Assembly (NCBI GenBank): GCA_963753445.1
Contig: CAVWCG010000003.1
Span: 100,592-164,591, forward strand
DNA length: 64,000 nucleotides
DNA from: an uncultured Actinomycetes bacterium
GTDB taxonomy: Bacteria; Actinomycetota; Thermoleophilia; Solirubrobacterales; 70-9
Reading direction: 5' to 3'
Under the pieces are notes generated by a model. That model was given only the letters and a program-made list of their open reading frames with translations. It made no database searches and was not told where the DNA came from. Position numbers and translations under genes: made by a program. Below are positions 13,808 through 58,800 of the stretch, one piece after another (the stretch's first letter is position 1; the number at the start of each line of letters is the position of its first letter).

Positions 13808-14080
13808 ATGGCGACGGTTCGCATCCCACCTGTCCTGCGCCCGAAAACCGGCGGCGCCCCCGAGGTCGATGCCGCGGGCGGCAACGTCGGCGAGGTCCTG
13901 CGCGCCCTGACCGCCGCGCACCCCGACACCTCGGCCCAGCTGTTCGACGCCGAGGGCGAGCTCAACCGCTACGTCAACATCTACCTGAACGACGAGGACG
14001 TGCGGGTGCTCGACGGCCTCGACACCTCGGTCACCGACGGCGACACGGTCGTGATCCTCCCGGCCATGGCCGGCGGCTGA
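13808..14080 (+). CDS. cysO: ThiS/MoaD-fold sulfur carrier protein (CysO-like)
   Basis: ORF 13808..14080, 90 aa, ending in ...VVILPAMAGG then stop. This is the diglycine tail of beta-grasp sulfur carriers. Confidence 0.8.
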   Translation: MATVRIPPVLRPKTGGAPEVDAAGGNVGEVLRALTAAHPDTSAQLFDAEGELNRYVNIYLNDEDVRVLDGLDTSVTDGDTVVILPAMAGG

Positions 14081-14198
14081 GACGCCTGCAAATCGGCGCC
14101 TGGCGGCGTCCTCGGTCGGTCTCATCGGGTCCGCACTGGAGTGCGCTCCCCTCTGCGCCCGCCCTGCGTCCTTGCCAGGCTTGATTTTCGGCGTCTCA
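14078..14198 (+). repeat. stop-codon-associated structured repeat, copy A
   Basis: It starts on the cysO stop codon. Outer arms are tgagacgcc / ggcgtctca. The core has GGCGTCCTCGG, a central hairpin gcactggagtgc and CTGCGTCCTTG. Confidence 0.7.
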
Positions 14199-14222
14199 GG
14201 GCGAGCTCGGTCGGCTCGCTCA

Positions 14223-14292
14223 CCGGTCAGGAATCTGCGCGGTTAGTTATCCACGTATACGACGGTTTTTTAACCCGGCAGATTTCTGACCG
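14223..14292. terminator. 15-bp inverted repeat around an AT-rich loop, 3' of the ABC operon
   Basis: The arms ccggtcaggaatctgc and gcagatttctgaccg pair at 14 of 15 positions. The loop holds the lowest-GC patch nearby and a T6 run. Confidence 0.4.
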
Positions 14293-14301
14293 TTTGAGCG
14301 T

Positions 14302-15066
14302 CTAACGCTCGAGGACGCGGCCGAGGAACTTCTTGGTGCGCTCCTCGCGGGGGTGGTCGAGGATCTGGGTGGGGTCGCCCTGCTCGACGACGACGCCGCC
14401 GTCCATGAAGACGACCTGGTCGCCGACCTCCTTGGCGAAGCCCATCTCGTGGGTGACGACCAGCATCGTCATCCCTTCGTCGGCGAGCTCGCGCATCGTG
14501 TCGAGGACCTCTTTGACCAGCTCGGGGTCGAGCGCCGAGGTGACCTCGTCGAAGAGCATCACGTGGGGTTCCATCGCCAGCGCCCGGGCGATCGCGACGC
14601 GCTGCTGCTGACCGCCGGAGAGCGTTTCCGGATACTGGCCGAGGCGGTCGCCGAGGCCGACCCGCTCGAGCAGCGCCTTGCCTTTCTCTTCCGCCTCCGA
14701 CTTGGATCTGCCCAGGACCCGTTGGGGCGCCAGGGTCACGTTCTGGAGCGCGGTCTTGTGGGGGAAGAGGTTGAACTGCTGGAAGACCATGCCGACCCGC
14801 TGGCGGACGAAGTCGAGGTTCCAGCTCGACTCGCCGGTGCCGGAGCCGGGGCCCTTGCAGATGTCCTGGCCCTCGAGGAAGATCTCGCCCTCCTCCGGCG
14901 GCGACAGCAGGTTGACGCAGCGCAGCAGCGTGCTCTTGCCCGAGCCGCTCGGCCCGAGGATGCAGATCACTTCGCCTTTGGCGACGTCGAGGTCGACGCC
15001 TTTCAGCACTTCAAGGCTGCCGAAGCGCTTGCGGACGCCTTTCAGCTGCACCATCGGCTCTGCCAT
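14302..15066 (-). CDS. polar amino-acid ABC transporter ATP-binding protein
   Basis: This is the C-terminal 254 codons of ORF 14302..15810, starting at [10 protein letters not shown]. It has Walker [10 protein letters not shown], signature [15 protein letters not shown] and Walker [12 protein letters not shown]. It overlaps the permease in an ATGA. Confidence 0.92.
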
Positions 15067-15810
15067 CACGCCACCTCGATGTGGGCGCCGCGGGCGAGTT
15101 TGCCCTGGTTGCGTTTGATCAGATAATCGACCAGGCGCGCCCCCGGCAGGCAGATGACGAGGAAGAAGGCGGCGGTCAGGGTCAGCGCCGAGCTGTTCAG
15201 CTGTTCGGCGAGGATTTCGCGGCTGACCAGCACCGACTCGCCGAAGGCGATCACGCTGACCAGCGTCGTGTCCTTCAGCAGGGAGATCATTTCGTTCAGC
15301 ATCGGCGCCGGGATCTTCGTCACCGCCTGCGGGACGACGATGTGGCGCATCGCCTGGAAGTGGCTCATGCCGAGCGAGCGGGCCGCCTCCATCTGGCCTT
15401 TTGGCACCGCTTCGATCCCGGCCCGGTAGACCTCCGCCATATAGGCGCCGTAGACGAAGACCAGTGCCGCGACGCCGTACCAGAACGGATCGGGCTTGCC
15501 GAACCACTCGGGGATGCGGATGCCTTTCGGCAGGAAGGTGAGGAAGGGCACGCCGCCGGAGATCATCAGGATGATGATCAGCATCGGGATCGCCCGGAGA
15601 ACGTCGATATAGGCGATCGTCAGGAAGCGGAGCGGCATCGAATTTCTTCCCGGGCAGCTGGCGCAGCAGGGCCAGGACGAGGCCCCAGATGAGGGCGACG
15701 ATCACCGCGACGAGGAAGATCAAGAGGTTCTGCAGGAAGGCTTCGAAGACTTCCCCGAAGTGTTCTCCCATGATGTGGAAATCGAAATACTGTTCGAAAA
15801 AGACCTTCAA
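15066..15810 (-). CDS. amino-acid ABC transporter permease, frame-disrupted near 15639
   Basis: The N-terminal 57 codons (MKVFFEQ...[14 protein letters not shown]) lie in the frame of ORF 14302..15810. The rest ([18 protein letters not shown]...) lies in ORF 15066..15638. The total span is 3n+1 nt. GGAG precedes the TTG at 15810. Confidence 0.75.
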
Positions 15811-15910
15811 ATCTCGCTCCTGATCCTGCGTTTCCCGGTCAAATCGAAAGAGGGGGGCACCGTTCCCGGCGCCCCCCTCCGTTATACGACTTTCAGCTAC
15901 CGCGCGATCG

Positions 15911-16797
15911 TCACTTCGATTCGGCTTCTTCGATCGCTTCTTCGAGGCCTTTCAGCGGCGGTGCTTCTTTGAACCACTTTTCGTAGACCTTGGTGTAGCT
16001 GCCGTCTTCGATGGTCTTCTTCAGGCCTTCGTTGATCTGTTCGAGCAGTTCGGTGCTTTCCGGCGCGACCGCGATTCCGTACGTTTCTTCGGTCGGGACT
16101 TTTTCGACGATTTCGATGCCGCCGAGTTCTTCGGCCTGCTGTTTCGCGACCGGCGCGTCGATGATCACCGCTTCGACCGTCCCGGCCTTCAGCGCGTTGT
16201 CGGCGTCGGGGCCTTCCGGGTAGGGCCGGAGTTCCTTGGCTTCGGCTTTTTCCTTGCCGAGTTCGAGGCCGGTCGTGCCCTGCTGGGCGGCGACGATTTT
16301 GCCCTTGAGGTCGGAGAGGCCGGTGATCGAGCTGCCTTCTTTGACCAGGATCGCCTGTTCGGAGAGGTAGTACGGCAGCGAGAAGGAGACGACTTTTTCG
16401 CGTTCTTCGGTGATCGTCGCCGCCGACATCACCGCTTCGAACTTTTCCTGGGCGACGTCGCGGAAGATCGTTTCGAACGAGGAGTCGATGAATTCCGGTT
16501 CGCGGCCGATCTCTTTGCCGATCGCTTCCATCAGTTCGACGTCGAAGCCGGTGTAGCTGCCCTTTTTCCCCTGCTCGAACGGGGGATAGGGGATATCGGA
16601 GCCGACCGTCAGCTTTTCGCCGCCGCCGCTCGATTCTTCTTCGCCGCGCCTCCGCCACCGCTGCTTTCCGCGCTTTCTTCGCTCGTGCTGCTCGAGCTCG
16701 AGCTGCTGGAGCCGCCGCCGCATCCCGCGACGACGATCGCCACCACTCCCACGAGAAGCACCGCCATAAAGGCGGCCAGCCGCGTCTTACTGAACAA
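15911..16797 (-). CDS. amino-acid ABC transporter substrate-binding lipoprotein, frame-disrupted near 16640-16655
   Basis: The lipoprotein signal [26 protein letters not shown] is in ORF 16609..16797, with GGAGG before the TTG. The mature family-3 binding domain ([14 protein letters not shown]...[13 protein letters not shown]) is in ORF 15911..16723. The span is 3n+2 nt. Confidence 0.75.
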
Positions 16798-16892
16798 ACC
16801 TGCCTCCGATCAAGAATTTGCTGGACTCGGGCCGAACATACACCCGATTCCAGGGGTCGCGTTTGTCCAGGGGTCCAAGATTCCTCCCCACC

Positions 16893-16916
16893 GTCGCTAC
16901 ACTTTCTGAAGTAGGG
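16893..16916 (+). promoter_or_regulatory. conserved promoter/leader motif GTCGCTACACTTTCTGAAGTAGGG upstream of cysM
   Basis: This is the near-identical partner of 12563-12586. It ends 14 nt before the cysM ATG. Confidence 0.45.
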
Positions 16917-16930
16917 GGTACCGGCAACCG

Positions 16931-17896
16931 ATGGCACCAGATCCAGTCTTGAACAGACCTTGCGGGGGGCGCTTCGGCGACGTGGTCGAATCGATCGGCA
17001 ATACGCCGCTGGTCGAGCTGTCCCGACTCTCGCCGAAGCCCGACGTCCGCATCTTCGCGAAGCTCGAGGGCCACAACCCGACCGGCTCGGTGAAGGACCG
17101 CGTCGCCCGCTCGATGATCGAGAAGGCCGAGGCCGAAGGGGCGATCGAGCCGGGCCAGACGATCCTCGAACCGACTTCCGGCAACACCGGCATCGCGCTG
17201 GCGATGATCTGCCGGCGCAAGGGCTACCCGCTGCAGGTGGTGATGCCCGACAACGTCACCGAGGAGCGCACCCAGCTGCTGCGCATGTACGGCGCCGAGA
17301 TCGTCTACTCGGAGGGGGCGAAGGGCTCCAACGGGGCGGTCGAGGTGGCACTCGAGCTGGCCGAGCAGCCCGGCTTCTTCATGCCCTACCAGTACGGCAA
17401 CGAGGCCAACCCGCTCGCCCACTACAACGGGACCGCGGTCGAGATCCTCGAAGAGCTCGACTCGGTCGCCGCCTTCGTCGGCGGCCTCGGCACCGGTGGC
17501 ACCCTGATGGGCAACGGCCGCCGGCTCAAGGAGGCCGACCCCGAGACCTTGGTGGTCGCCGCCGAGCCGATGCAGGGGGAGCTCGTCCAGGGGCTCCGCT
17601 CCCTCGACGACGGCTTCATCCCGCCGATCATCGACCTCGGCCTGCTCGACCGCAAAATCATGGTCTCGAATCGCGACGCGATCGTCTGGACCAAGAAGCT
17701 GCTCGAGGAGGAGGGCGTCTTCTCCGGCGTCTCCGGGGGCGCGGTCGCCCGCGTCGCGGCGCGGATCGCGGGGGAGATCGACTCCGGCAACGTCGTCTTC
17801 CTGATCCCCGACGACGGCTGGAAGTACCTCTCCTCCGGCATTTACACGAAGCCGCTCGAGGAGATCGAGAATCTGGACTCCACCGTCTGGTGGTAG
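16931..17896 (+). CDS. cysM: PLP-dependent cysteine synthase, CysM type
   Basis: ORF 16931..17896, 321 aa. It has the PLP-lysine motif NPTGSVKDR and GNTGIALA, and is clustered with CysO and Mec. Confidence 0.9.
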   Translation: MAPDPVLNRPCGGRFGDVVESIGNTPLVELSRLSPKPDVRIFAKLEGHNPTGSVKDRVARSMIEKAEAEGAIEPGQTILEPTSGNTGIALAMICRRKGYPLQVVMPDNVTEERTQLLRMYGAEIVYSEGAKGSNGAVEVALELAEQPGFFMPYQYGNEANPLAHYNGTAVEILEELDSVAAFVGGLGTGGTLMGNGRRLKEADPETLVVAAEPMQGELVQGLRSLDDGFIPPIIDLGLLDRKIMVSNRDAIVWTKKLLEEEGVFSGVSGGAVARVAARIAGEIDSGNVVFLIPDDGWKYLSSGIYTKPLEEIENLDSTVWW

Positions 17897-17898
17897 CT

Positions 17899-18004
17899 CT
17901 GGGAGTGCGCCTGGCGCGGCGCATATCGGCGTCCTCGGTCGCTCGCGTGCAGAGCACGCCACGCTCCTTGCGTCCTTGATCTGCTTGGCCAGTCACACTC
18001 CCAG
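17899..18004 (+). repeat. stop-codon-associated structured repeat, copy B
   Basis: It starts 3 nt after the cysM stop. Outer arms are ctgggagtg / cactcccag. The core has GGCGTCCTCGG, the hairpin gcgtgcagagcacgc and TTGCGTCCTTG. Confidence 0.7.
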
Positions 18005-18013
18005 AAAGGCATC

Positions 18014-18412
18014 GTGAAGATTTCTCAAGCCCTGGTCGACGAAATGGTCGCGCACGCTCGCGAGGACCTGCCGAACGAGTGCTGCGGGATGGTGGGTGGC
18101 GTGGACGGGGAGGCGACCAAGGTGGTGCGGGTCGGCAACGCGGCGGCGACGCCGTTGCGCTACGAGATGGACCCGCAGGGGCAGTTCGACGCGCTGAAGG
18201 AGATCGAAGCGGACGGCGACCTGCTGGCGATCTACCACTCGCACACGAAAAGCGCCGCCTATCCGTCCCAGACCGACGTCAACCAGGCACAGAACTGGCC
18301 GGAACCGGTCTACATCATCATCTCGCTGGCCGATGCCGATAACCCCGATGTGCAGGCCTTCCACCTAGCCGACCTGAAGATCGCCGACGCCGACCTGGAG
18401 ATCGTGGCGTGA
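18014..18412 (+). CDS. mec: JAMM/MPN+ metalloprotease (Mec-like, CysO-cysteine hydrolase)
   Basis: ORF 18014..18412, 132 aa. It has the JAMM motif HSHTKSAAYPSQTD and the upstream Glu context PNECCG. Confidence 0.85.
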   Translation: MKISQALVDEMVAHAREDLPNECCGMVGGVDGEATKVVRVGNAAATPLRYEMDPQGQFDALKEIEADGDLLAIYHSHTKSAAYPSQTDVNQAQNWPEPVYIIISLADADNPDVQAFHLADLKIADADLEIVA

Positions 18413-18880
18413 GCCCCGAGACCAAACACCGCGGCGCCCACTCGCGCGGCTCCCACGGCGGCGGCGGGCACGGCGGCGAGGGTGGCGGCGGCGGAGGCGG
18501 TGGGGGCGGCGGCAAGCTGGTCAAGGTCGGCTTCGCCCGCAGCCAGGCCGAAGCCGAGATGCTGCAGGGCCTGCTGCTCGAGTCCGACATCCCGAGCATC
18601 CTCAAACGCTCGCGCGGCTTCGACAACCCGGACTTCCTCGGCGGCGGCCCGCACGACATCTGGGTCAACTCCGAACACGCTCACGAGGCGCGCCGGCATG
18701 CTCGAGGAAACGATGACCGATGGCGAGGGCGAGGGCGAGGAGCGGGCCGAGCTCGAGGGCGAAGCGCGCCTGCGGCGGACCGGCGGCGAACCGATGACGC
18801 CCGGTCGCCTCGCGCTCTGGGTCGCCGGCGCGGCCGTCGTCGCCGTGATCGTGATCCTGATCGCCTACTGGATCAGCTGA
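18409..18880 (+). CDS. DUF2007-like small protein with Gly-rich N-terminus and C-terminal membrane anchor, frame-disrupted near 18697
   Basis: GTG 18409 overlaps the mec stop. KLVKVGFARSQAEAEMLQGLLLESDIPSILK is in ORF 18409..19161. After ...HEARR the coding signal moves to ORF 18482..18880 (MLEETMTDGEGE...LALWVAGAAVVAVIVILIAYWIS). The span is 3n+1 nt. Confidence 0.6.
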
Positions 18881-18882
18881 CG

Positions 18883-18909
18883 CCGGCCGCTCAGCTGACG
18901 CTGGCCGGC
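18883..18909. terminator. hairpin between convergent gene ends
   Basis: The arms gccggcc / ggccggc flank the palindrome tcagctga. The element covers the stop codon of the minus-strand gene. Confidence 0.4.
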
Positions 18910-19649
18910 CGCACCATCTCGCGCAGGTGGTCGCGCCAGGCGGCTTCGATGTCGCGGAAGCGGGCGTCGAAGGCGTCTTCCAGGGTGACCGCGGGACCGC
19001 CGGGGAGGAGGCCGTCGACGAGGCGCTCGCAGGCCTCGGGCCCGCGCTCGTTCTCGAGCAGGTCGAAGATCGTGCCGCCGAGGATCACCGCGTCGCGGCG
19101 CGATGGCGGGAAGGAGACGCGGCCCGCGCCGCGCAGGCGCAGCAGCACCGCGGCGCGGTAGAGGCCGACCTGGCGGGCGAAGTACTGGGCGCCGCCTTCG
19201 ACCAGCCAGGCCCAGCGCAGGTAGCGGACGAAGCGGCGCGGCGTCCAGGAGGGCGGCAGCGCCGGGTTGTTGGTCGCGATCACCAGCTGGGCGTAGAGGC
19301 GCTCGGCGGTCCCGCGCAGCGCTTCGAGCGAGTCCTCGCCGGCGGCGCGCCGTTCCATGTGGCGGTCGTTGAGGACGTGGAGCTCGGTTGCCATCGGCCA
19401 TCCCGCCAGGTAGCGGCGCCCGGCCGGCGCCGCCGCCCAGCGCGCGGCGGGCAGGAAGGGGTGGGCCATCGTCAGCGAGACCGGGTTGGTGTGGATGACG
19501 ACGGTGACCTCGTCGGGCACCTTGTCGAAACGGTCTTCGAGGCGCAGCCGCAGCGTCTCCATCCGGTCCAGGGTCCGATCGGCGAACGCCGCGTCCTCGG
19601 AGTCGTGGCGCGCGGTGAACGAAAGCGACTCGGTTTCAACCCAGGACAT
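18891..19649 (-). CDS. hypothetical protein (252 aa), family not recognised
   Basis: ORF 18891..19649 has high GC3 and globular-looking composition. I saw no motif I can name. Confidence 0.7.
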   Translation of the reverse strand: MSWVETESLSFTARHDSEDAAFADRTLDRMETLRLRLEDRFDKVPDEVTVVIHTNPVSLTMAHPFLPAARWAAAPAGRRYLAGWPMATELHVLNDRHMERRAAGEDSLEALRGTAERLYAQLVIATNNPALPPSWTPRRFVRYLRWAWLVEGGAQYFARQVGLYRAAVLLRLRGAGRVSFPPSRRDAVILGGTIFDLLENERGPEACERLVDGLLPGGPAVTLEDAFDARFRDIEAAWRDHLREMVRPASVS

Positions 19650-19671
19650 GATCCCAGGCTAGAGCCTGCGT

Positions 19672-19749
19672 TCGGCTGACCAAGCAGAGCAAGGACACAC
19701 GAGCGAGCGTGCTCTGCACGTGAGCGAGCAGGACGCCGCTATGCGCCGG
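19672..19749 (-). repeat. stop-codon-associated structured repeat, copy C
   Basis: On the minus strand it starts right after the stop of the gene at 19750..20379. The reverse complement aligns with copy B (ggcgcata-gcggcgtcct...cgtgcagagcacg...tgtccttg-ctctgcttgg). Confidence 0.65.
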
Positions 19750-20379
19750 TCAGACGAGGGCAGGCTCAGCCGCACCGCACACGTCGCGAATCTCTTCGCG
19801 GGCGCGGTCGAACTCCTCGTCGGCCATCACCGGCGTGCCCTCGAAGGGCAGATCGCGGTCGATCTCGACCCAGGAGCGGCAGCCGTGGTACTCGTCGCGG
19901 ACCCGCACGGTGACCGGGCGGGGGATGCGGTGGACCCGCAGCAGCAGGATGTGAAGGGGGTGACGACGCTTCCAGGCGAGTCGCTTCTCGGCGTAATCCG
20001 GCGTCCAGATGTAGTACGGCGACAGGCAGTCGAGGGTGCGCCGGTCTTCGATCGTGACGTGGTCGGTCACCTCGGCCCAGGCGCGCAGCCGGACACGGTC
20101 GGGCTGGGGGATGCCACCGTCCTGGATCAGGGCTTTCGGCGGCGGCTCCTCGTCGGGCCAGACGCCCTCCTCGAGGGCGCGACGCAGCTCGGGGTGGTGC
20201 GATTCCCGGACCAGGTCGTTCCGCTGGTGGTCGAAGGTCGGATAGAGGAAGAACCGCTCGTGCTCCAGTTCGAAGTGCTTGTTCTCCTCGCGAATTCCGC
20301 CCTTGCGCAGGGTGAGCAGCTGCTCACCCTCGGCGAGAGCGCGGACCGTTACAGCCCATTCCTTGAGAGCGATTGGCAT
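19750..20379 (-). CDS. DUF1802-like protein
   Basis: ORF 19750..20379, 209 aa. Its N-terminus MPIALKEWAVTVRALAEGEQLLTLRKGGI matches my recollection of DUF1802 proteins. This is unverified. Confidence 0.7.
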   Translation of the reverse strand: MPIALKEWAVTVRALAEGEQLLTLRKGGIREENKHFELEHERFFLYPTFDHQRNDLVRESHHPELRRALEEGVWPDEEPPPKALIQDGGIPQPDRVRLRAWAEVTDHVTIEDRRTLDCLSPYYIWTPDYAEKRLAWKRRHPLHILLLRVHRIPRPVTVRVRDEYHGCRSWVEIDRDLPFEGTPVMADEEFDRAREEIRDVCGAAEPALV

Positions 20380-41257: not shown

Positions 41258-41364
41258 AGCGTGGGGGCGCCTCGCGGCGTCCTCGGTCGTTCGGCTCGGG
41301 TCACGCACTGGAGTGCGCTCCCCTCGCCTCACTTCCCTGCGTCCTGGCGAGGCTGGCCCACGCT
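41258..41364 (+). repeat. stop-codon-associated structured repeat, copy D
   Basis: It starts 9 nt after the guaA stop. Outer arms are agcgtggg / cccacgct. The core is nearly identical to copy E. Its right end overlaps the lgt stop codon. Confidence 0.7.
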
Positions 41365-42172
41365 ACCGCGTGGACGTCCTTGGACGTCGGCGCGGCGCTG
41401 GGTCCAGAGCGAACCAGGTCGCGCCGACCAGGGTGAGCGCGATGGCCACCCAGAAGTTGAGGCGCTGGCCGAGGATGTGATGGGCGGGGTCGACCCGCAG
41501 GCTCTCCTCGAAGATGCGGAAGGCCGAGTAGCCGGTGACGTAGAGGGCGAAGAGGCCGGGCGGGCGGATCTTGCGATGGTGGCCGAGCCAGACGAGGAAG
41601 GCGGCCAGCGCCAGGTCGAAGATCAGCTCGTAGAGGAAGGTCGGCTGGAAGGTGGCGTAGTGGAGGTAGCCCTCGGGGCGGTGCGCCGGTGAGATCTGCA
41701 GTGCCCAGGGGAGGTTGGTCGGGCCGCCGAAGAGCTCCTGGTTGAAGTAGTTGCCGACCCGGCCGATCGCCTGGGCGACGAGCAGGGCGGGAGCGGTCGC
41801 GTCCATGAAGGCGGGCACGCGAGACGCCGGCCCGGTGGACGCGCCAGATCCCGACCAGCGGCGCCGGCGGCGATTCCGCCCCAGATGCCGAGCCCGCCGT
41901 CCCAGACCGCGAACGGGCCCCACCAGGTGTGCGGGCATTTCGCCGAAGCTGGTGATGTCGAAGTAGAGGCGGCCGCCGATCAGGCCGGCCGGAAAGGCCC
42001 AGATCGCGACGTCGTAGACGAGGTCGGGGTCGCCGCCCTGGGCCCGCCAGCGCCGCCGCACGATCAGCACCGCCGCGGTCACGGCGATCGCGTACATCAG
42101 CCCATAGACGTGGACCTCGAACGGCCCGATGCCGAAGCCGCTGGAGGCTGGGCTGGGGATCGAGGCGATCAC
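41363..42172 (-). CDS. lgt: prolipoprotein diacylglyceryl transferase, central segment out of frame
   Basis: ORF 41363..42355, with the start at GTG 42172 ([24 protein letters not shown]). The C-terminal part has [13 protein letters not shown]. The conserved [24 protein letters not shown] is readable only in shifted frames across about 41815-41935. Confidence 0.85.
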
Positions 42173-57072: not shown

Positions 57073-57291
57073 ATGGCTAAAGAGGAAAAGATCGAAATGG
57101 AGGGAGAGATCACCGAGGCTCTCCCCAACACGATGTTCCGGGTCAAACTGGACAACGGACACGATGTGCTCGGTCACATCTCCGGCAAGATGCGCCGCCA
57201 CTACATCCGCATCCTGCCCGGCGACCGCGTGAAGATCGAGCTGAGTCCTTACGACCTCGACCGCGGCAGAATCACCTATCGCTACAAATAG
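57073..57291 (+). CDS. infA: translation initiation factor IF-1
   Basis: ORF 57073..57291, 72 aa, beginning [41 protein letters not shown]. Confidence 0.95.
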
Positions 57292-57380
57292 GCGCCTGAC
57301 GGCGTCCTCGGTCGTTCGCCTCGGGTCACGCACAGGTGTGCGCTCCCCGCGGCTCGCTTCCCTGCGTCCTTGTCAGACGT
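57292..57380 (+). repeat. stop-codon-associated structured repeat, copy E
   Basis: It starts at the infA stop. It reads gcgcctgac-GGCGTCCTCGGTCGTTCGCCTCGGGTCACGCACAGGTGTGCGCTCCCC...CCCTGCGTCCTTGTCAG and is very close to copy D. Confidence 0.7.
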
Positions 57381-57480
57381 CTCTTTGAAGCGGTAGGCCG
57401 GGCTCGGCCGCGGCTCGATGTCCGCCCCTGGGTGGCAGCGCGCGGCCGGCTGTCGCCTCGACCGCGCTCCGGGGGGAGGT

Positions 57481-57640
57481 GAGAAAGGTCGACCGCGGCC
57501 CGTCAGGGACCGTGGCCCATGAGGTGCTCAGGTGCGGTCGACCTTTGGCCCGCCCTCGGCCGTGCGGTCGTCCTTTGGCCCGTTGTCAGGGTCAAAGGAC
57601 GACCGCGGTTCAATGTCCGGGCCAAAGGACGACCGCGGGT
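57481..57640. repeat. cluster of five 17-19 bp units arranged as 30-bp tandem pairs in inverted orientation
   Basis: The units are F0 57481-57500, R1 57532-57550, R2 57562-57580, F1 57590-57608 and F2 57620-57638. The core is AAAGG(A/T)CGACCGCGG or its complement. Confidence 0.75.
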
Positions 57641-58800
57641 CCGCGAGCTCCGCGATCAAAGCGGACCAGGCGAACTCCTTGGCGCCGAGGCCGGTGCCGT
57701 CGCGCGGGTCGTAGTACTCGCGCAGCCCTGAGCGGTCGACGGCGCCGATGACGCCGGCGGCGAGGCCTTCGGCCTCCTCGAGGTAGCCGAGCCGGCGCAT
57801 CCCCAGCCAGACCAGCCAGGCTCGCGTTGATCCAGGTCGGGCCACGCCAGTAGCGGCGGATCGGGCCGCGGCTGCCGCCCGGCTCGCAGCTGCGCTCCGC
57901 GACCGATACGGAGGGCGGCGCCACCGGGGTGAGGAACTCACGCTGGTTCAGCAGGTGCTCCTCGACGAGCCGCCGGCCGATCGGCTCGGGCAGGTCGGGC
58001 AGCGCCAGCGGCGCCAGGCTCGCCCAGGTGACCGGGGAGGGGCGGAGGCCGCCCGGCTGGGCCTCGTCGACGAAGAGCCCGCGCTCCTCGTCCCAGAGCC
58101 GCTCGACCAGCGCCGGCGTCGCCGACGGCCGCCCGAGGCTCTGCAGCGCGAGCGACCAGAACGTGTTGACCAGCGTCTCGCAGAGGACCGGGCCACCGCG
58201 GTCGCGGATCCGCCGCGCGTCCCAGCCGAGCCGGCGGTTGCGCGCGACCAGCAGGGGGAAGCCGGCGCGGCCGCCGGAGCGGCGCCCCCAGACCGGTTCG
58301 AACTTGGGCGAGGCGTCGAGCCCCGACTCGTCGGGCTGGACGATCCAGAGCAGGCCGTCGCCCTCGAGGTCGCGATTGGCGAGCAGCCAGTCGGCCTGGG
58401 CGCCGATCCGCGGCTCCGCGGCGGGGTCGCCGACCGCGATCCGCCAGGCCCACGCCAGCAGCGGCGGCTGGATCGACTCGGTCTGCCGCGCCGTCCGGGT
58501 GGCGACGTTGTAGAAGGCGCGCCTGATCCCGGCGACCGGCCGCCCCCAGAAGATCGTGTGGCCGATGAAGCCGCCGGGGCGCTGGACGGCGAGCAGGCTC
58601 TCCAGCTCGGCCCGCGAGCGGCCCGGCTCGAAGCGCCGGTTGACGATCGCCGCGAAGCAGGAGTCCCAGTACCACTGCCACGGATAGCGGCCTGGGCTCG
58701 GTTCGGTGTAGGCGTAGCAGATGCCGTCAGCCTCGCCTTCGCGCCAGTTCTGGCGGAGGACCCGCTCGGCCTCGGCGAGGGCGCGTTCGGCGTCGTCCAT
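57528..58800 (-). CDS. six-hairpin glycoside hydrolase (GH63/MGH1-like), frame-disrupted near 57820, tail runs into the repeat cluster
   Basis: ORF 57610..58800 contains YPWQWYWDSCFAAI and ends with ...RYWRGPTWINAS. It continues in ORF 57528..57941 as WLVWLGMRRLGYLEEAEGL...EYYDPRDGTGLGAKEFAWSAL. The span is 3n+1 nt. Confidence 0.75.

What the first reader, a model, noticed from the sequence alone, without database searches (positions are those of the whole stretch)
14078..14198. Structured repeat family placed directly after stop codons (5 copies in 64 kb)
- Copies: 14078-14198 (+), 17899-18004 (+), 19672-19749 (-), 41258-41364 (+), 57292-57380 (+).
- Shared parts: a 5' box GGCGTCCT, a central GC hairpin, and a 3' box TGCGTCCTTG (TGTGTCCTTG in copy C).
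- Position: every copy starts 0-9 nt after the stop codon of a gene on the same strand (cysO, cysM, the DUF1802-like gene, guaA, infA).
- Covariation: the outermost closing helix differs between copies but stays complementary within each. The pairs are tgagacgcc/ggcgtctca, ctgggagtg/cactcccag and agcgtggg/cccacgct.
- I do not recognise this as a named RNA or REP family. It could be a REP/MITE-like element, a 3' UTR terminator or stabiliser, or a protein-binding platform.
Basis: seen in the sequence. Interest (0 to 1): 0.7.

Follow-up and report, generated by a model that had tools for sequence, protein, structure and literature searches.

The report
Mobile palindromic repeat at gene ends
The five repeats are real copies of an undescribed small hairpin-shaped mobile DNA element, found across the soil actinobacterial class Thermoleophilia, that settles at gene ends and lengthens its stem by copying neighbouring DNA in reverse, sometimes rewriting a neighbour's stop codon and last amino acids.

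Summary
A covariance model finds exactly five copies in the window (E 2e-22 to 1e-9; next hit E 0.03). Each lies 0-8 nt after a same-strand stop codon.

The family is not in Rfam, in the searched papers, or in the plasmid and phage collections. It is widespread in Thermoleophilia genomes assembled from metagenomes (at least 120 loci).

Each copy is a nested palindrome. Its top carries two near-invariant boxes, GGCGTCCTCGGTCG and CTCCCTGCGTCCTTG. The stems around the boxes (P2, P3) vary with many compensatory changes.

It behaves as mobile or unstable DNA:
- Close relatives (about 90% DNA identity) lack copies A, B and C.
- Contigs with an identical InfA protein carry or lack copy E.
- One pair of contigs differs by a clean 90-nt indel.

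The copy-specific outer helix is not RNA covariation. At the infA and cysO sites one arm is an inverted duplicate of the other flank. That duplicate created new stop codons and new C-termini (GH ...YRFK* versus ...DPKPL*; CysO GG* versus GGAS*).

Across the family, orientation is about 3:1 sense. No U-tract follows the hairpin, G·U pairs are not in excess, and some orthologous copies have decayed.

Best reading: a new REP/MITE-like palindromic element. An RNA role at the 3' end of transcripts is not excluded.

The parts
14078..14198 (+). Copy A (long form), the whole hairpin. Outer arms 14078-14086 TGAGACGCC and 14190-14198 GGCGTCTCA. Model match 14092-14188. 5' box 14105-14118. 3' box 14160-14174. 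The left arm supplies the cysO stop codon TGA.
   Evidence: Element-free relative L134 reads GGCGGC GCC TCC TAG at this site.
17899..18004 (+). Copy B (short form), between cysM and mec. Outer arms 17899-17907 CTGGGAGTG and 17996-18004 CACTCCCAG. Model match 17915-17992. 5' box 17928-17941. 3' box 17964-17978.
   Evidence: Most CysM-orthologue loci have only 7-25 nt between cysM and mec.
19676..19753 (-). Copy C (short form, one-base deletion in the 5' box). Its terminal CTGACC (19753-19748) contains the DUF1802 stop TGA (19752-19750). 5' box 19737-19725. 3' box 19704-19690. Right end GGTCAG 19681-19676.
   Evidence: Relative L132 has an unrelated 38-nt spacer at this site.
41258..41364 (+). 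Copy D (long form), after guaA. Outer arms 41258-41265 AGCGTGGG and 41357-41364 CCCACGCT. Model match 41263-41361. 5' box 41276-41289. 3' box 41333-41347 (ends TGG). The stop of a convergent gene (CTA, 41363-41365) overlaps the right arm.
57275..57397 (+). Copy E (long form), after infA. Left arm is the infA 3' end CCTATCGCTACAAATAG (57275-57291). Model match 57288-57386. 5' box 57301-57314. 3' box 57358-57372. Right arm CTCTTTGAAGCGGTAGG (57381-57397) is a diverged inverted copy of the infA end.

Best explanation
The five repeats belong to an undescribed family of small (about 78-195 nt), non-coding, palindromic repeat elements of the class Thermoleophilia. In kind they resemble REP/REPIN and MITE elements.

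Anatomy. Each copy is a nested hairpin.
- At the top sit two near-invariant boxes, GGCGTCCTCGGTCG and CTCCCTGCGTCCTTG. Both contain GCGTCCT and both read in the same direction. They enclose a variable inner hairpin, P3.
- Below the boxes come a variable 5-6 bp helix (P2) and a conserved CCGGCGC/GCTTGG step (P1).
- Below that come arms that are specific to a lineage or to a single copy.

Behaviour (shown). Copies are gained and lost at gene ends over short evolutionary distances. The inner module, short or long P3, is exchanged at the same locus.

Origin of the outer arms (inferred from comparing occupied and empty sites). They arise in place by inverted duplication of one flank. The likely route is snap-back or template-switch DNA synthesis on the hairpin during replication. 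This is why the stem so often begins at a stop codon and why the stops of convergent genes pair with each other. It also explains why neighbouring genes acquire new stop codons and C-terminal residues. Extended arms can then travel with the element; the Gaiellales 195-nt unit is an example.

The boxes (inferred, weakest step). They are the recognition site of an unidentified trans-acting protein that keeps the family active across the class.

Transcription (inferred). Because most copies are transcribed with the upstream gene, they probably also act incidentally as hairpins at the 3' end of the transcript.
For: Real, class-wide family:
- The window holds five copies by the model search.
- The box pattern is found at 120 or more loci, all but one chance match (L085, inside coding sequence) in Thermoleophilia genomes assembled from metagenomes: Solirubrobacterales, Gaiellales, Thermoleophilaceae, Miltoncostaeaceae.

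Gain and loss:
- Ten contigs encode an identical InfA protein in the same gene order. L121, L122 and L130 carry the element. L124, L125, L127, L128 and L129 have the infA stop and the convergent GH stop overlapping or 6-7 nt apart. L123 and L126 have a different gene downstream and no copy.
- Contigs L131-L136 are about 90% identical in DNA to the window. None has a model hit. L134 and L136 lack copy A, L132 lacks B and C, and L131, L133 and L135 lack B.
- L183 and L193 differ by a clean 90-nt indel, with a GGC repeat at the junction.

Arms made by inverted duplication:
- infA site: the right flank CTATTTGAAGCGATAG is the reverse complement of the infA end CTATCGCTACAAATAG at 15 of 16 positions. 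It now encodes the end of the convergent GH...YRFK* in L122 and L130, against ...DPKPL*/DPKSL* at empty sites.
- cysO site: the left arm TGAGACGC is the inverted copy of the flank GCGTCTCA, which is seen without any element in L170. It replaces the CysO tail GG-AS* with GG*.
- Family-wide, the flanks outside P1 are more complementary than mismatched controls: duplex energy -26.7 versus -19.1 kcal/mol, and a median of 9 versus 4 anchored matches.
- Expansion of inverted-repeat arms by polymerase template switching is documented elsewhere (PMC8794818, PMC8604942, PMC13100816; found, abstracts only).

Exchange of the inner module at one locus:
- infA site: L122 is short and L130 long, with identical flanks.
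- cysO site: the window is long and L192 short.

Arms moving with the element: the Gaiellales 195-nt unit has sharp boundaries, (TA)GGAGGGCTTGGCG...CGCCAAGCCCTCC(TA), at ten non-orthologous loci.

Features expected of selfish or neutral DNA rather than an RNA selected at every copy:
- Boxes have decayed in the copies after cysO in L193, L166 and L137.
- 12 of 51 copies between tandem genes are antisense, with intact boxes.
- The variable helices hold about 30 G·U pairs against 57 A·C pairs.
- Distribution is typical of REP-like elements: 40 convergent, 51 tandem, 6 divergent.
Against: - No transposase or other partner protein was identified. Two pairs of inverted copies enclose only ordinary small ORFs.
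- No unambiguous target-site duplication was found. The TA ends of the Gaiellales unit lie inside a palindromic CTAG. The only other candidate is the GGC repeat in a single pair.
- The boxes at the top, not the ends, are the conserved part. That is unusual for a MITE recognised through its terminal repeats.
- Box conservation across four orders, and in the orthologous cysM-mec copies whose arms have diverged beyond alignment, could instead reflect purifying selection for a function.
- The 3:1 sense bias follows gene orientation even within one locus (window copy C; L113). An RNA-level constraint would explain that.
- The direction of the L183/L193 difference (insertion or deletion) is not resolved.
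- The pattern search required intact boxes, which inflates the apparent conservation.
Confidence: 0.6

Rival explanations
1. Functional RNA module. The boxes and P3 form a conserved internal-loop motif in the 3' UTR that a protein recognises. It would act as a factor-dependent terminator, a processing site or a stabiliser, and selection would maintain the stems. Its multi-copy distribution would reflect recruitment at many gene ends.
For: - The boxes are near-invariant in the copies recovered from four orders, while P2 and P3 co-vary strongly: 80.6% of cells paired versus 67.1% in shuffles, 383 versus 140 double-change cells, and 26-48% paired in slid controls.
- There is a sense bias of 39:12 between tandem genes, and the five window copies are all sense.
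- The conserved CCGG/UUGG step pairs only as G·U on the sense strand.
- At the infA locus a synonymous TAT/TAC change in infA is matched by A/G in the opposite arm in L122, L130 and L079.
- The cysM-mec copies keep their boxes although their arms have diverged.
Against: - About a quarter of intact copies between tandem genes are antisense.
- G·U pairs are not in excess over A·C in the variable helices, about 30 versus 57.
- Boxes have decayed in several copies after cysO.
- Close relatives do without the element at all four loci where relatives were compared.
- No U-tract follows the hairpin.
- There is no Rfam match.
- Copy B sits inside an apparent cysM-mec operon, where a terminator would be counterproductive.
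Confidence: 0.2
2. The element is mobile, but the outer arms are not made by it. It inserts specifically into the loop of hairpins that already exist at gene ends (terminator-like), as IS1397 and some IS110-family elements are reported to insert into REP hairpins.
For: - L193 has the outer hairpin GTGTGGC..GCCGCA without the element, exactly where L183 carries it.
- Empty infA sites have a small hairpin, CCGCT-acaaatag-AGCGG, with the insertion point in its loop.
- L168 has the hairpin CCCCG-TTC-CGGGG after cysO where L189 carries a copy.
Against: - At the infA and cysO sites the long arms of occupied loci are absent from empty relatives. They consist of sequence copied from the other flank, including coding sequence and stop codons.
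- L134 has no hairpin at the cysO site.
- L193 can equally be a deletion of the element between the GGC repeats that left the arms behind.
- The comparison with IS1397 and IS110 rests on my own recall, not on a test here.
Confidence: 0.15
3. Folded single-strand recombination sites of the integron attC type: imperfect palindromes directly after the stop codon of a gene, in the same orientation, recognised by a tyrosine recombinase.
For: Position directly after stop codons and same-strand orientation in the window. Variable stems with conserved boxes facing each other in the fold.
Against: - The upstream genes are housekeeping genes in conserved gene order, not cassettes (infA, guaA, cysO, cysM).
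- The attC core sites RYYYAAC/GTTRRRY, recalled from my own knowledge of attC, are absent from the sequences.
- The copies are dispersed rather than arrayed.
- No integrase gene was seen in the Pfam-annotated InfA loci.
Confidence: 0.02

Closest known systems
REP / REPIN elements, including the GTAG- and CGTC-tagged REP superfamilies (Di Nocera et al. 2013, PMC3733652)
   Same: - Short GC-rich extragenic palindromes in many copies.
- Enriched between convergent and tandem genes and depleted between divergent ones.
- Often abut or supply stop codons.
- Transcribed with the upstream gene.
- Persist over long evolutionary times.
- Each box contains the tetranucleotide CGTC.
   Different: - Tagged REPs are 20-40 nt. 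They have the tag directly next to an 8-9 bp stem whose first two pairs are A/T, a 4-5 nt loop and a CCA tail, and they form head-to-head dimers.
- Here the two CGTC-containing boxes read in the same direction and are separated from the stems.
- The unit is 78-195 nt, and the conserved part is an internal loop at the top of the hairpin.
- The paper does not mention Actinobacteria.
- No REP-associated tyrosine transposase (RAYT) gene was found or sought systematically.
[quoted passage not shown] Correia, ERIC, RPE)
   Same: - Small and non-coding, with long inverted arms.
- Dispersed copies at non-orthologous loci.
- Present in some close relatives and absent from others.
- Subfamilies with sharp boundaries; the Gaiellales unit has 17-nt terminal repeats flanked by TA.
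   Different: - In most copies the outermost arms are specific to that copy.
- The invariant sequence lies at the top, not at the ends.
- No parent insertion sequence and no clear target-site duplication were found.
- Arms made by inverted duplication of the flank are not a described MITE property, as far as I know.
Expansion of inverted repeats by template switching / quasipalindrome mutagenesis (PMC8794818, PMC8604942, PMC13100816)
   Same: A mutational process that homogenises and lengthens hairpin arms by copying one arm or flank in inverted orientation. It fits the infA and cysO junctions.
   Different: It is a general mutational mechanism, not an element family. It does not explain the conserved boxes or the dispersal to new loci.
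Intrinsic (Rho-independent) terminators
   Same: A GC-rich hairpin immediately after the stop codon. Between convergent genes the hairpin is placed to serve both directions.
   Different: No U-tract follows the hairpin. The hairpin is 80-200 nt with conserved internal loops. Some copies lie inside operons (cysM-mec) or are antisense.

Membership tests
Rfam RNA families | Match to a curated covariance model | tested here: not met
   No match at gathering scores in the whole window. Only chance-level miRNA and lncRNA hits at E above 2 in 13900-19900, which holds copies A-C.
MITE | Small, non-coding, long inverted arms | tested here: met
   Units are 78-195 nt. Each folds as one long hairpin (-38 to -61 kcal/mol; z-scores only -1.5 to -4.1 against shuffles of this GC-rich sequence). 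The longest ORFs listed across copy E are spurious.
MITE | Dispersed copies, with some sites occupied in one relative and empty in another | tested here: met
MITE | Target-site duplication (direct repeat) flanking the terminal inverted repeats | tested here: inconclusive
   The Gaiellales unit is flanked by TA on each side in 7 (left) and 8 (right) of 10 copies, but inside a palindromic CTAG. A GGC repeat is seen in one clean pair. At infA and cysO the flanks are inverted, not direct.
MITE | A related autonomous insertion sequence with the same ends | not tested
   Only 8-kb loci were available and no whole genomes. Two pairs of inverted copies enclose no transposase-like ORF.
CGTC-/GTAG-tagged REP | A terminal unpaired tetranucleotide tag directly next to an 8-9 bp stem (A/T in the first two pairs), a 4-5 nt loop and a CCA tail; 20-40 nt in all | tested here: not met
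   CGTC is present in both boxes but lies 8 nt from P3. The stems are GC-rich and 6-11 bp, and the unit is 78 nt or more.
REPIN-RAYT system | A single-copy RAYT (tyrosine transposase) gene flanked by the repeats | not tested
   Needs complete genomes of carriers. None could be read whole here.
Intrinsic terminator | A GC-rich hairpin followed by a run of U | tested here: not met
   No T run follows any of the five window copies. Only 2 of the 44 copies that could be measured have 5 or more T in the 10 nt after the predicted hairpin (a rough measure).
Integron attC | Core sites RYYYAAC ... GTTRRRY at the two ends; units arrayed behind cassette genes next to an integrase gene | tested here: not met
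   The core sites are absent from the sequences. The upstream genes are housekeeping genes in conserved gene order. The core-site consensus is from my own knowledge.
Structured cis-acting RNA (generic) | Compensatory base-pair changes together with tolerance of G·U but not A·C on the transcribed strand | tested here: inconclusive
   Compensatory changes are abundant in P2 and P3. In the variable pairs, however, A·C/C·A (about 57) outnumber G·U/U·G (about 30). A single-stranded DNA hairpin would show the same covariation.

The most novel reading that the evidence does not exclude
The invariant module at the top of the hairpin (two same-direction GCGTCCT boxes around a hairpin) is the working site of a dedicated, still unknown protein. 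One version: a nickase or recombinase drives hairpin-primed, 'rolling-hairpin'-like copying, so the palindrome grows outward from its top. That would be a way of spreading not described for bacterial repeats. The other version: an RNA-binding factor uses the module as a class-wide signal for ending or stabilising transcripts that lack a U-tract. Either version would explain why the top, not the ends, is conserved across four orders.
Probability: 0.2. Interest if true: 0.8.

Novelty: new variant of a known kind. Interest (0 to 1): 0.55.

Why it matters
Thermoleophilia are abundant soil bacteria known almost entirely from genomes assembled from metagenomes. Their non-coding DNA is essentially unstudied.

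This family gives them a REP/MITE-like repeat with three unusual traits:
- The conserved part is an internal loop at the top of the hairpin.
- The stem is built from inverted copies of the neighbouring DNA.
- The process visibly rewrites neighbouring genes. It creates new stop codons, gives a convergent gene the same C-terminal peptide as its neighbour, and removes the CysO tail that otherwise follows the Gly-Gly end. In the related mycobacterial system that tail is thought to be removed by Mec; this point is from my own knowledge.

The family offers natural examples of hairpin growth by template switching with dated 'before' and 'after' states. It is also a practical marker for annotating gene ends and for strain typing in these genomes. 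If a partner protein exists, the family would be a tractable new system linking a repeat to the protein that acts on it.

Tried and rejected
- Rfam: no family at gathering scores for the whole window or at permissive E-values for 13900-19900.
- Literature: no paper holds the box sequences. Searches on Thermoleophilia, Conexibacter and Solirubrobacter repeats found nothing specific.
- Plasmid and phage collections: no match.
- Viral contigs: one pattern hit, L211, is a chance match inside a collagen-like coding repeat. L085 is likewise a chance match in coding sequence.
- CGTC-tagged REPs: considered because both boxes contain CGTC, rejected on architecture.
- attC sites: rejected, because the core sites are absent and the upstream genes are housekeeping genes.
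- Canonical intrinsic terminator: rejected, no U-tract. My fold-based measure of stem length over-extends in this GC-rich DNA and was used only for the T count.
- Transposase between inverted copy pairs (L110, L113): only ordinary small ORFs.
- G·U versus A·C test for the functional strand: no excess on the sense strand, so uninformative.
- Target-site similarity: short similarities between the gene ends and the 5' half of the element at cysO, infA and DUF1802 were noticed, but judged compatible with chance in GC-rich sequence.
- K-turn and known ribozyme cores: considered from memory. No defining motif is visible and nothing was tested beyond Rfam.

Full report

Yes. The 15-mer CGGCGTCCTCGGTCG occurs exactly four times in the window; copy C has a one-base deletion in it.

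I built a covariance model, R1, from 114 copies: 112 from other genomes plus window copies B and C. Run over the whole window without filters, it returns exactly the five copies. Their E-values are 2e-22 (B), 2.6e-15 (A), 1.4e-13 (C), 5.3e-11 (E) and 1.3e-09 (D). The next hit has E 0.03.

Pfam confirms a ThiS-family CysO, a PALP-family CysM, a JAB-domain Mec and a DUF1802 protein. The ORF before copy E is the 72-residue InfA. guaA was not checked against a family library.

In the window every copy starts 0-8 nt after, or on, the stop codon of a same-strand gene.

**2. Anatomy**

The copies come in a short form (B, C) and a long form (A, D, E). From the outside in, each copy has:
- arms specific to that copy;
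- a conserved step, CCGGCGC / GCTTGG (P1);
- a variable 5-6 bp helix (P2);
- the 5' box GGCGTCCTCGGTCG;
- a variable inner hairpin (P3), with a nearly fixed U-A pair in its middle;
- the 3' box CTCCCTGCGTCCTTG;
- the partner strands of P2, P1 and the arms.

Both boxes contain GCGTCCT and read in the same direction.

The long form carries a second, nested module inside P3: CGGGTCACGCAC-loop-GTGCGCTCCCC.

P2 and P3 vary with many compensatory changes. On 114 copies, 80.6% of cells are paired against 67.1% in shuffles. There are 383 double-change cells against 140. Slid controls give 26-48% paired.

**3. Distribution**

All but one chance match in coding sequence (L085) are Thermoleophilia genomes assembled from metagenomes: Solirubrobacterales, Gaiellales, Thermoleophilaceae and Miltoncostaeaceae.

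Model R1 finds 13 further copies in the first 100 of these loci (746 kb) besides the ones the pattern had found. That is about one per 57 kb, against one per 13 kb in the window.

Nothing matches in:
- Rfam, either at gathering scores or in a permissive search of the stretch holding copies A-C;
- the plasmid and phage collections;
- the text of the searched papers.

The single viral-contig hit is a chance match in a coding repeat.

**4. Copies come and go**

*infA site.* Ten contigs encode an InfA protein identical to the window's, with the same gene order upstream (alanine racemase, then a PolyA_pol/HD-domain protein, then infA). In eight of them a convergent glycoside hydrolase (GH) follows.
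- L121, L122 and L130 carry the element after infA, as do the window and L079.
- L124, L125, L127, L128 and L129 do not. There the two stop codons overlap or lie 6-7 nt apart.
- L123 and L126 have a different downstream gene and no copy.

*cysO-cysM-mec region.* Eighty loci encoding a CysM orthologue were fetched from metagenomes. Only five besides the window carry a copy after cysM. Most have 7-25 nt between cysM and mec.

The closest contigs, L131-L136, are about 90% identical in DNA to the window. None has a model hit anywhere, and they lack copies A, B and C wherever they cover those sites.

*A clean indel.* L183 and L193 differ by exactly the 90-nt element, with GGC at both junctions.

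*Exchange of the inner module.* At one and the same locus P3 differs between relatives that share the same flanks:
- infA site: L122 short, L130 long;
- cysO site: window long, L192 short;
- cysM-mec site: window short, L183 long.

This means either repeated re-insertion or conversion between copies.

*Decay.* Several copies after cysO have decayed boxes (L193, L166, L137).

**5. Where the outer helix comes from**

It has a different explanation.

*infA site.* In occupied loci the sequence to the right of the element, CTATTTGAAGCGATAG, is the reverse complement of the infA 3' end, CTATCGCTACAAATAG, at 15 of 16 positions. This sequence is absent from empty sites. It now encodes the end of the convergent GH gene...NPSYRFK* in L122 and ...TAYRFK* in L130, against ...DPKPL* and ...DPKSL* in L124 and L127. 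InfA itself ends ...TYRYK*.

*cysO site.* Here the copying ran the other way. The right arm GCGTCTCA, which includes the stop codon of the convergent ABC-transporter gene, exists without any element in L170. The left arm TGAGACGC is its inverted copy. It replaces the CysO tail, so CysO ends GG* instead of GG-AS* or GG-AA*.

An inverted copy of a stop codon is a stop codon for the opposite strand. This explains why the stops of convergent genes are so often paired in these hairpins.

*Family-wide.* Flanks outside P1 are clearly more complementary than mismatched controls: -26.7 versus -19.1 kcal/mol, and a median of 9 versus 4 anchored matches.

*Mechanism.* Polymerase template switching on hairpins is known to homogenise and lengthen inverted-repeat arms (PMC8794818, PMC8604942, PMC13100816, abstracts only). 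I infer that mechanism here.

*The alternative.* The element might insert into hairpins that already exist. L193 supports this, since it has the outer hairpin without the element, and so do small hairpins at some empty sites. But L193 may equally be a deletion between the GGC repeats.

*Arms can become part of the mobile unit.* In Gaiellales a 195-nt unit with sharp ends, (TA)GGAGGGCTTGGCGAAAC ... GTTCCGCCAAGCCCTCC(TA), carries the same boxes at its top and sits at ten unrelated loci. In Solirubrobacterales, recurrent extensions such as CTGACC...GGTCAG and GCTGCAAACC...GGTTTTCGC behave the same way.

**6. RNA or DNA?**

*Context of 137 copies:* 40 lie between convergent genes, 39 between tandem genes in sense orientation, 12 between tandem genes in antisense orientation, and 6 between divergent genes. 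The other 40 could not be assigned. This is the distribution typical of REP-like repeats, with a 3:1 sense bias that follows the local gene rather than one absolute strand. Window copy C and the two copies in L113 show this.

*Against an RNA selected at every copy:*
- the antisense copies have intact boxes;
- some copies have decayed;
- close relatives lack the element;
- copy B sits inside an apparent operon;
- no U-tract follows the hairpin;
- in the variable helices A·C mismatches (about 57) outnumber G·U pairs (about 30).

*For an RNA-level role:*
- the sense bias;
- the conserved G·U step in P1;
- the extreme conservation of the boxes, including in cysM-mec copies whose arms have diverged beyond alignment.

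My pattern search required intact boxes, so the apparent conservation is partly a result of how the copies were collected.

**7. Comparison with known kinds**

The closest are REP/REPIN elements and MITEs.
- The CGTC-tagged REPs of Di Nocera et al. share the tetranucleotide but not the architecture, and that paper does not mention Actinobacteria.
- The MITE criteria of size, inverted arms, dispersal, and sites occupied in one relative but empty in another are met. A target-site duplication and a parent insertion sequence are not established.
- The features that define intrinsic terminators, attC sites or any Rfam family are not met.

**8. Verdict**

The finding is real and the family is undescribed in the resources searched.

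The best-supported reading is a palindromic mobile or unstable repeat whose stem grows by inverted duplication of flanking DNA, with effects on neighbouring genes. What reads the conserved boxes is unknown, and so is whether the transcript has a function. It is a new variant of a known kind, of moderate interest.

Noticed in passing
window 57474-57648: A second, unrelated repeat family: units of about 20-30 nt, GCGGTCG(A/T)CCTTTGGCCCG, in direct and inverted order at about 30-nt spacing. In the window it appears to be translated as a C-terminal extension of the convergent GH gene (...ELADPRSSFGPDIEPRSSFDPDNGPKDDRT...).
   Followed up: partly
window 14223-14293: A low-GC insert of about 70 nt with roughly 15-nt inverted ends, CCGGTCAGGAATCTGC / GCAGATTTCTGACCG, lies between copy A and the stop of the ABC-transporter gene. 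It is absent from relative L134. It was seen by eye and was not picked up by the repeat finder at seed 8.
   Followed up: partly
window 14066-14080; L134, L136, L139 and others: CysO ends exactly at Gly-Gly in the window and in other element-bearing loci. Many element-free relatives have 2-5 extra residues (GGAS*, GGAA*, GGACAA*). So the element changes whether the C-terminus needs trimming.
   Followed up: partly
L141, L146, L159, L165, L168 and others, just upstream of cysM: A conserved AT-rich motif, GCTATACTTTTTGAAGTAACGGGAGAG, lies immediately before cysM wherever cysO and cysM are adjacent. It looks like a promoter or leader plus a ribosome-binding site.
   Followed up: no
L131, L132, L139, L145, L153, L158 and others, after cysM: A recurrent motif, CGCAACT followed about 16-18 nt later by GTTT, lies upstream of a predicted secreted-protein gene inserted between cysM and mec in many relatives. 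It could be a promoter for an alternative sigma factor.
   Followed up: no
window 41366-41392: Directly after copy D lies ACCGCGTGGACGTCCTTGGACGTCGGC. It contains a lone CGTCCTTG resembling the 3' box, inside a small palindrome. It may be a remnant of another copy.
   Followed up: no
L063 3936-4106 and L098 2147-2327 (minus strand); L078: Tandem head-to-tail duplications of the element together with its arms. In L078 two long units abut at a CTAG.
   Followed up: no
L121 3330-3460: Yet another repeat, CGGGCGA(T/C)CCTCGTTAC in direct and inverted copies, lies downstream of the infA copy in L121.
   Followed up: no
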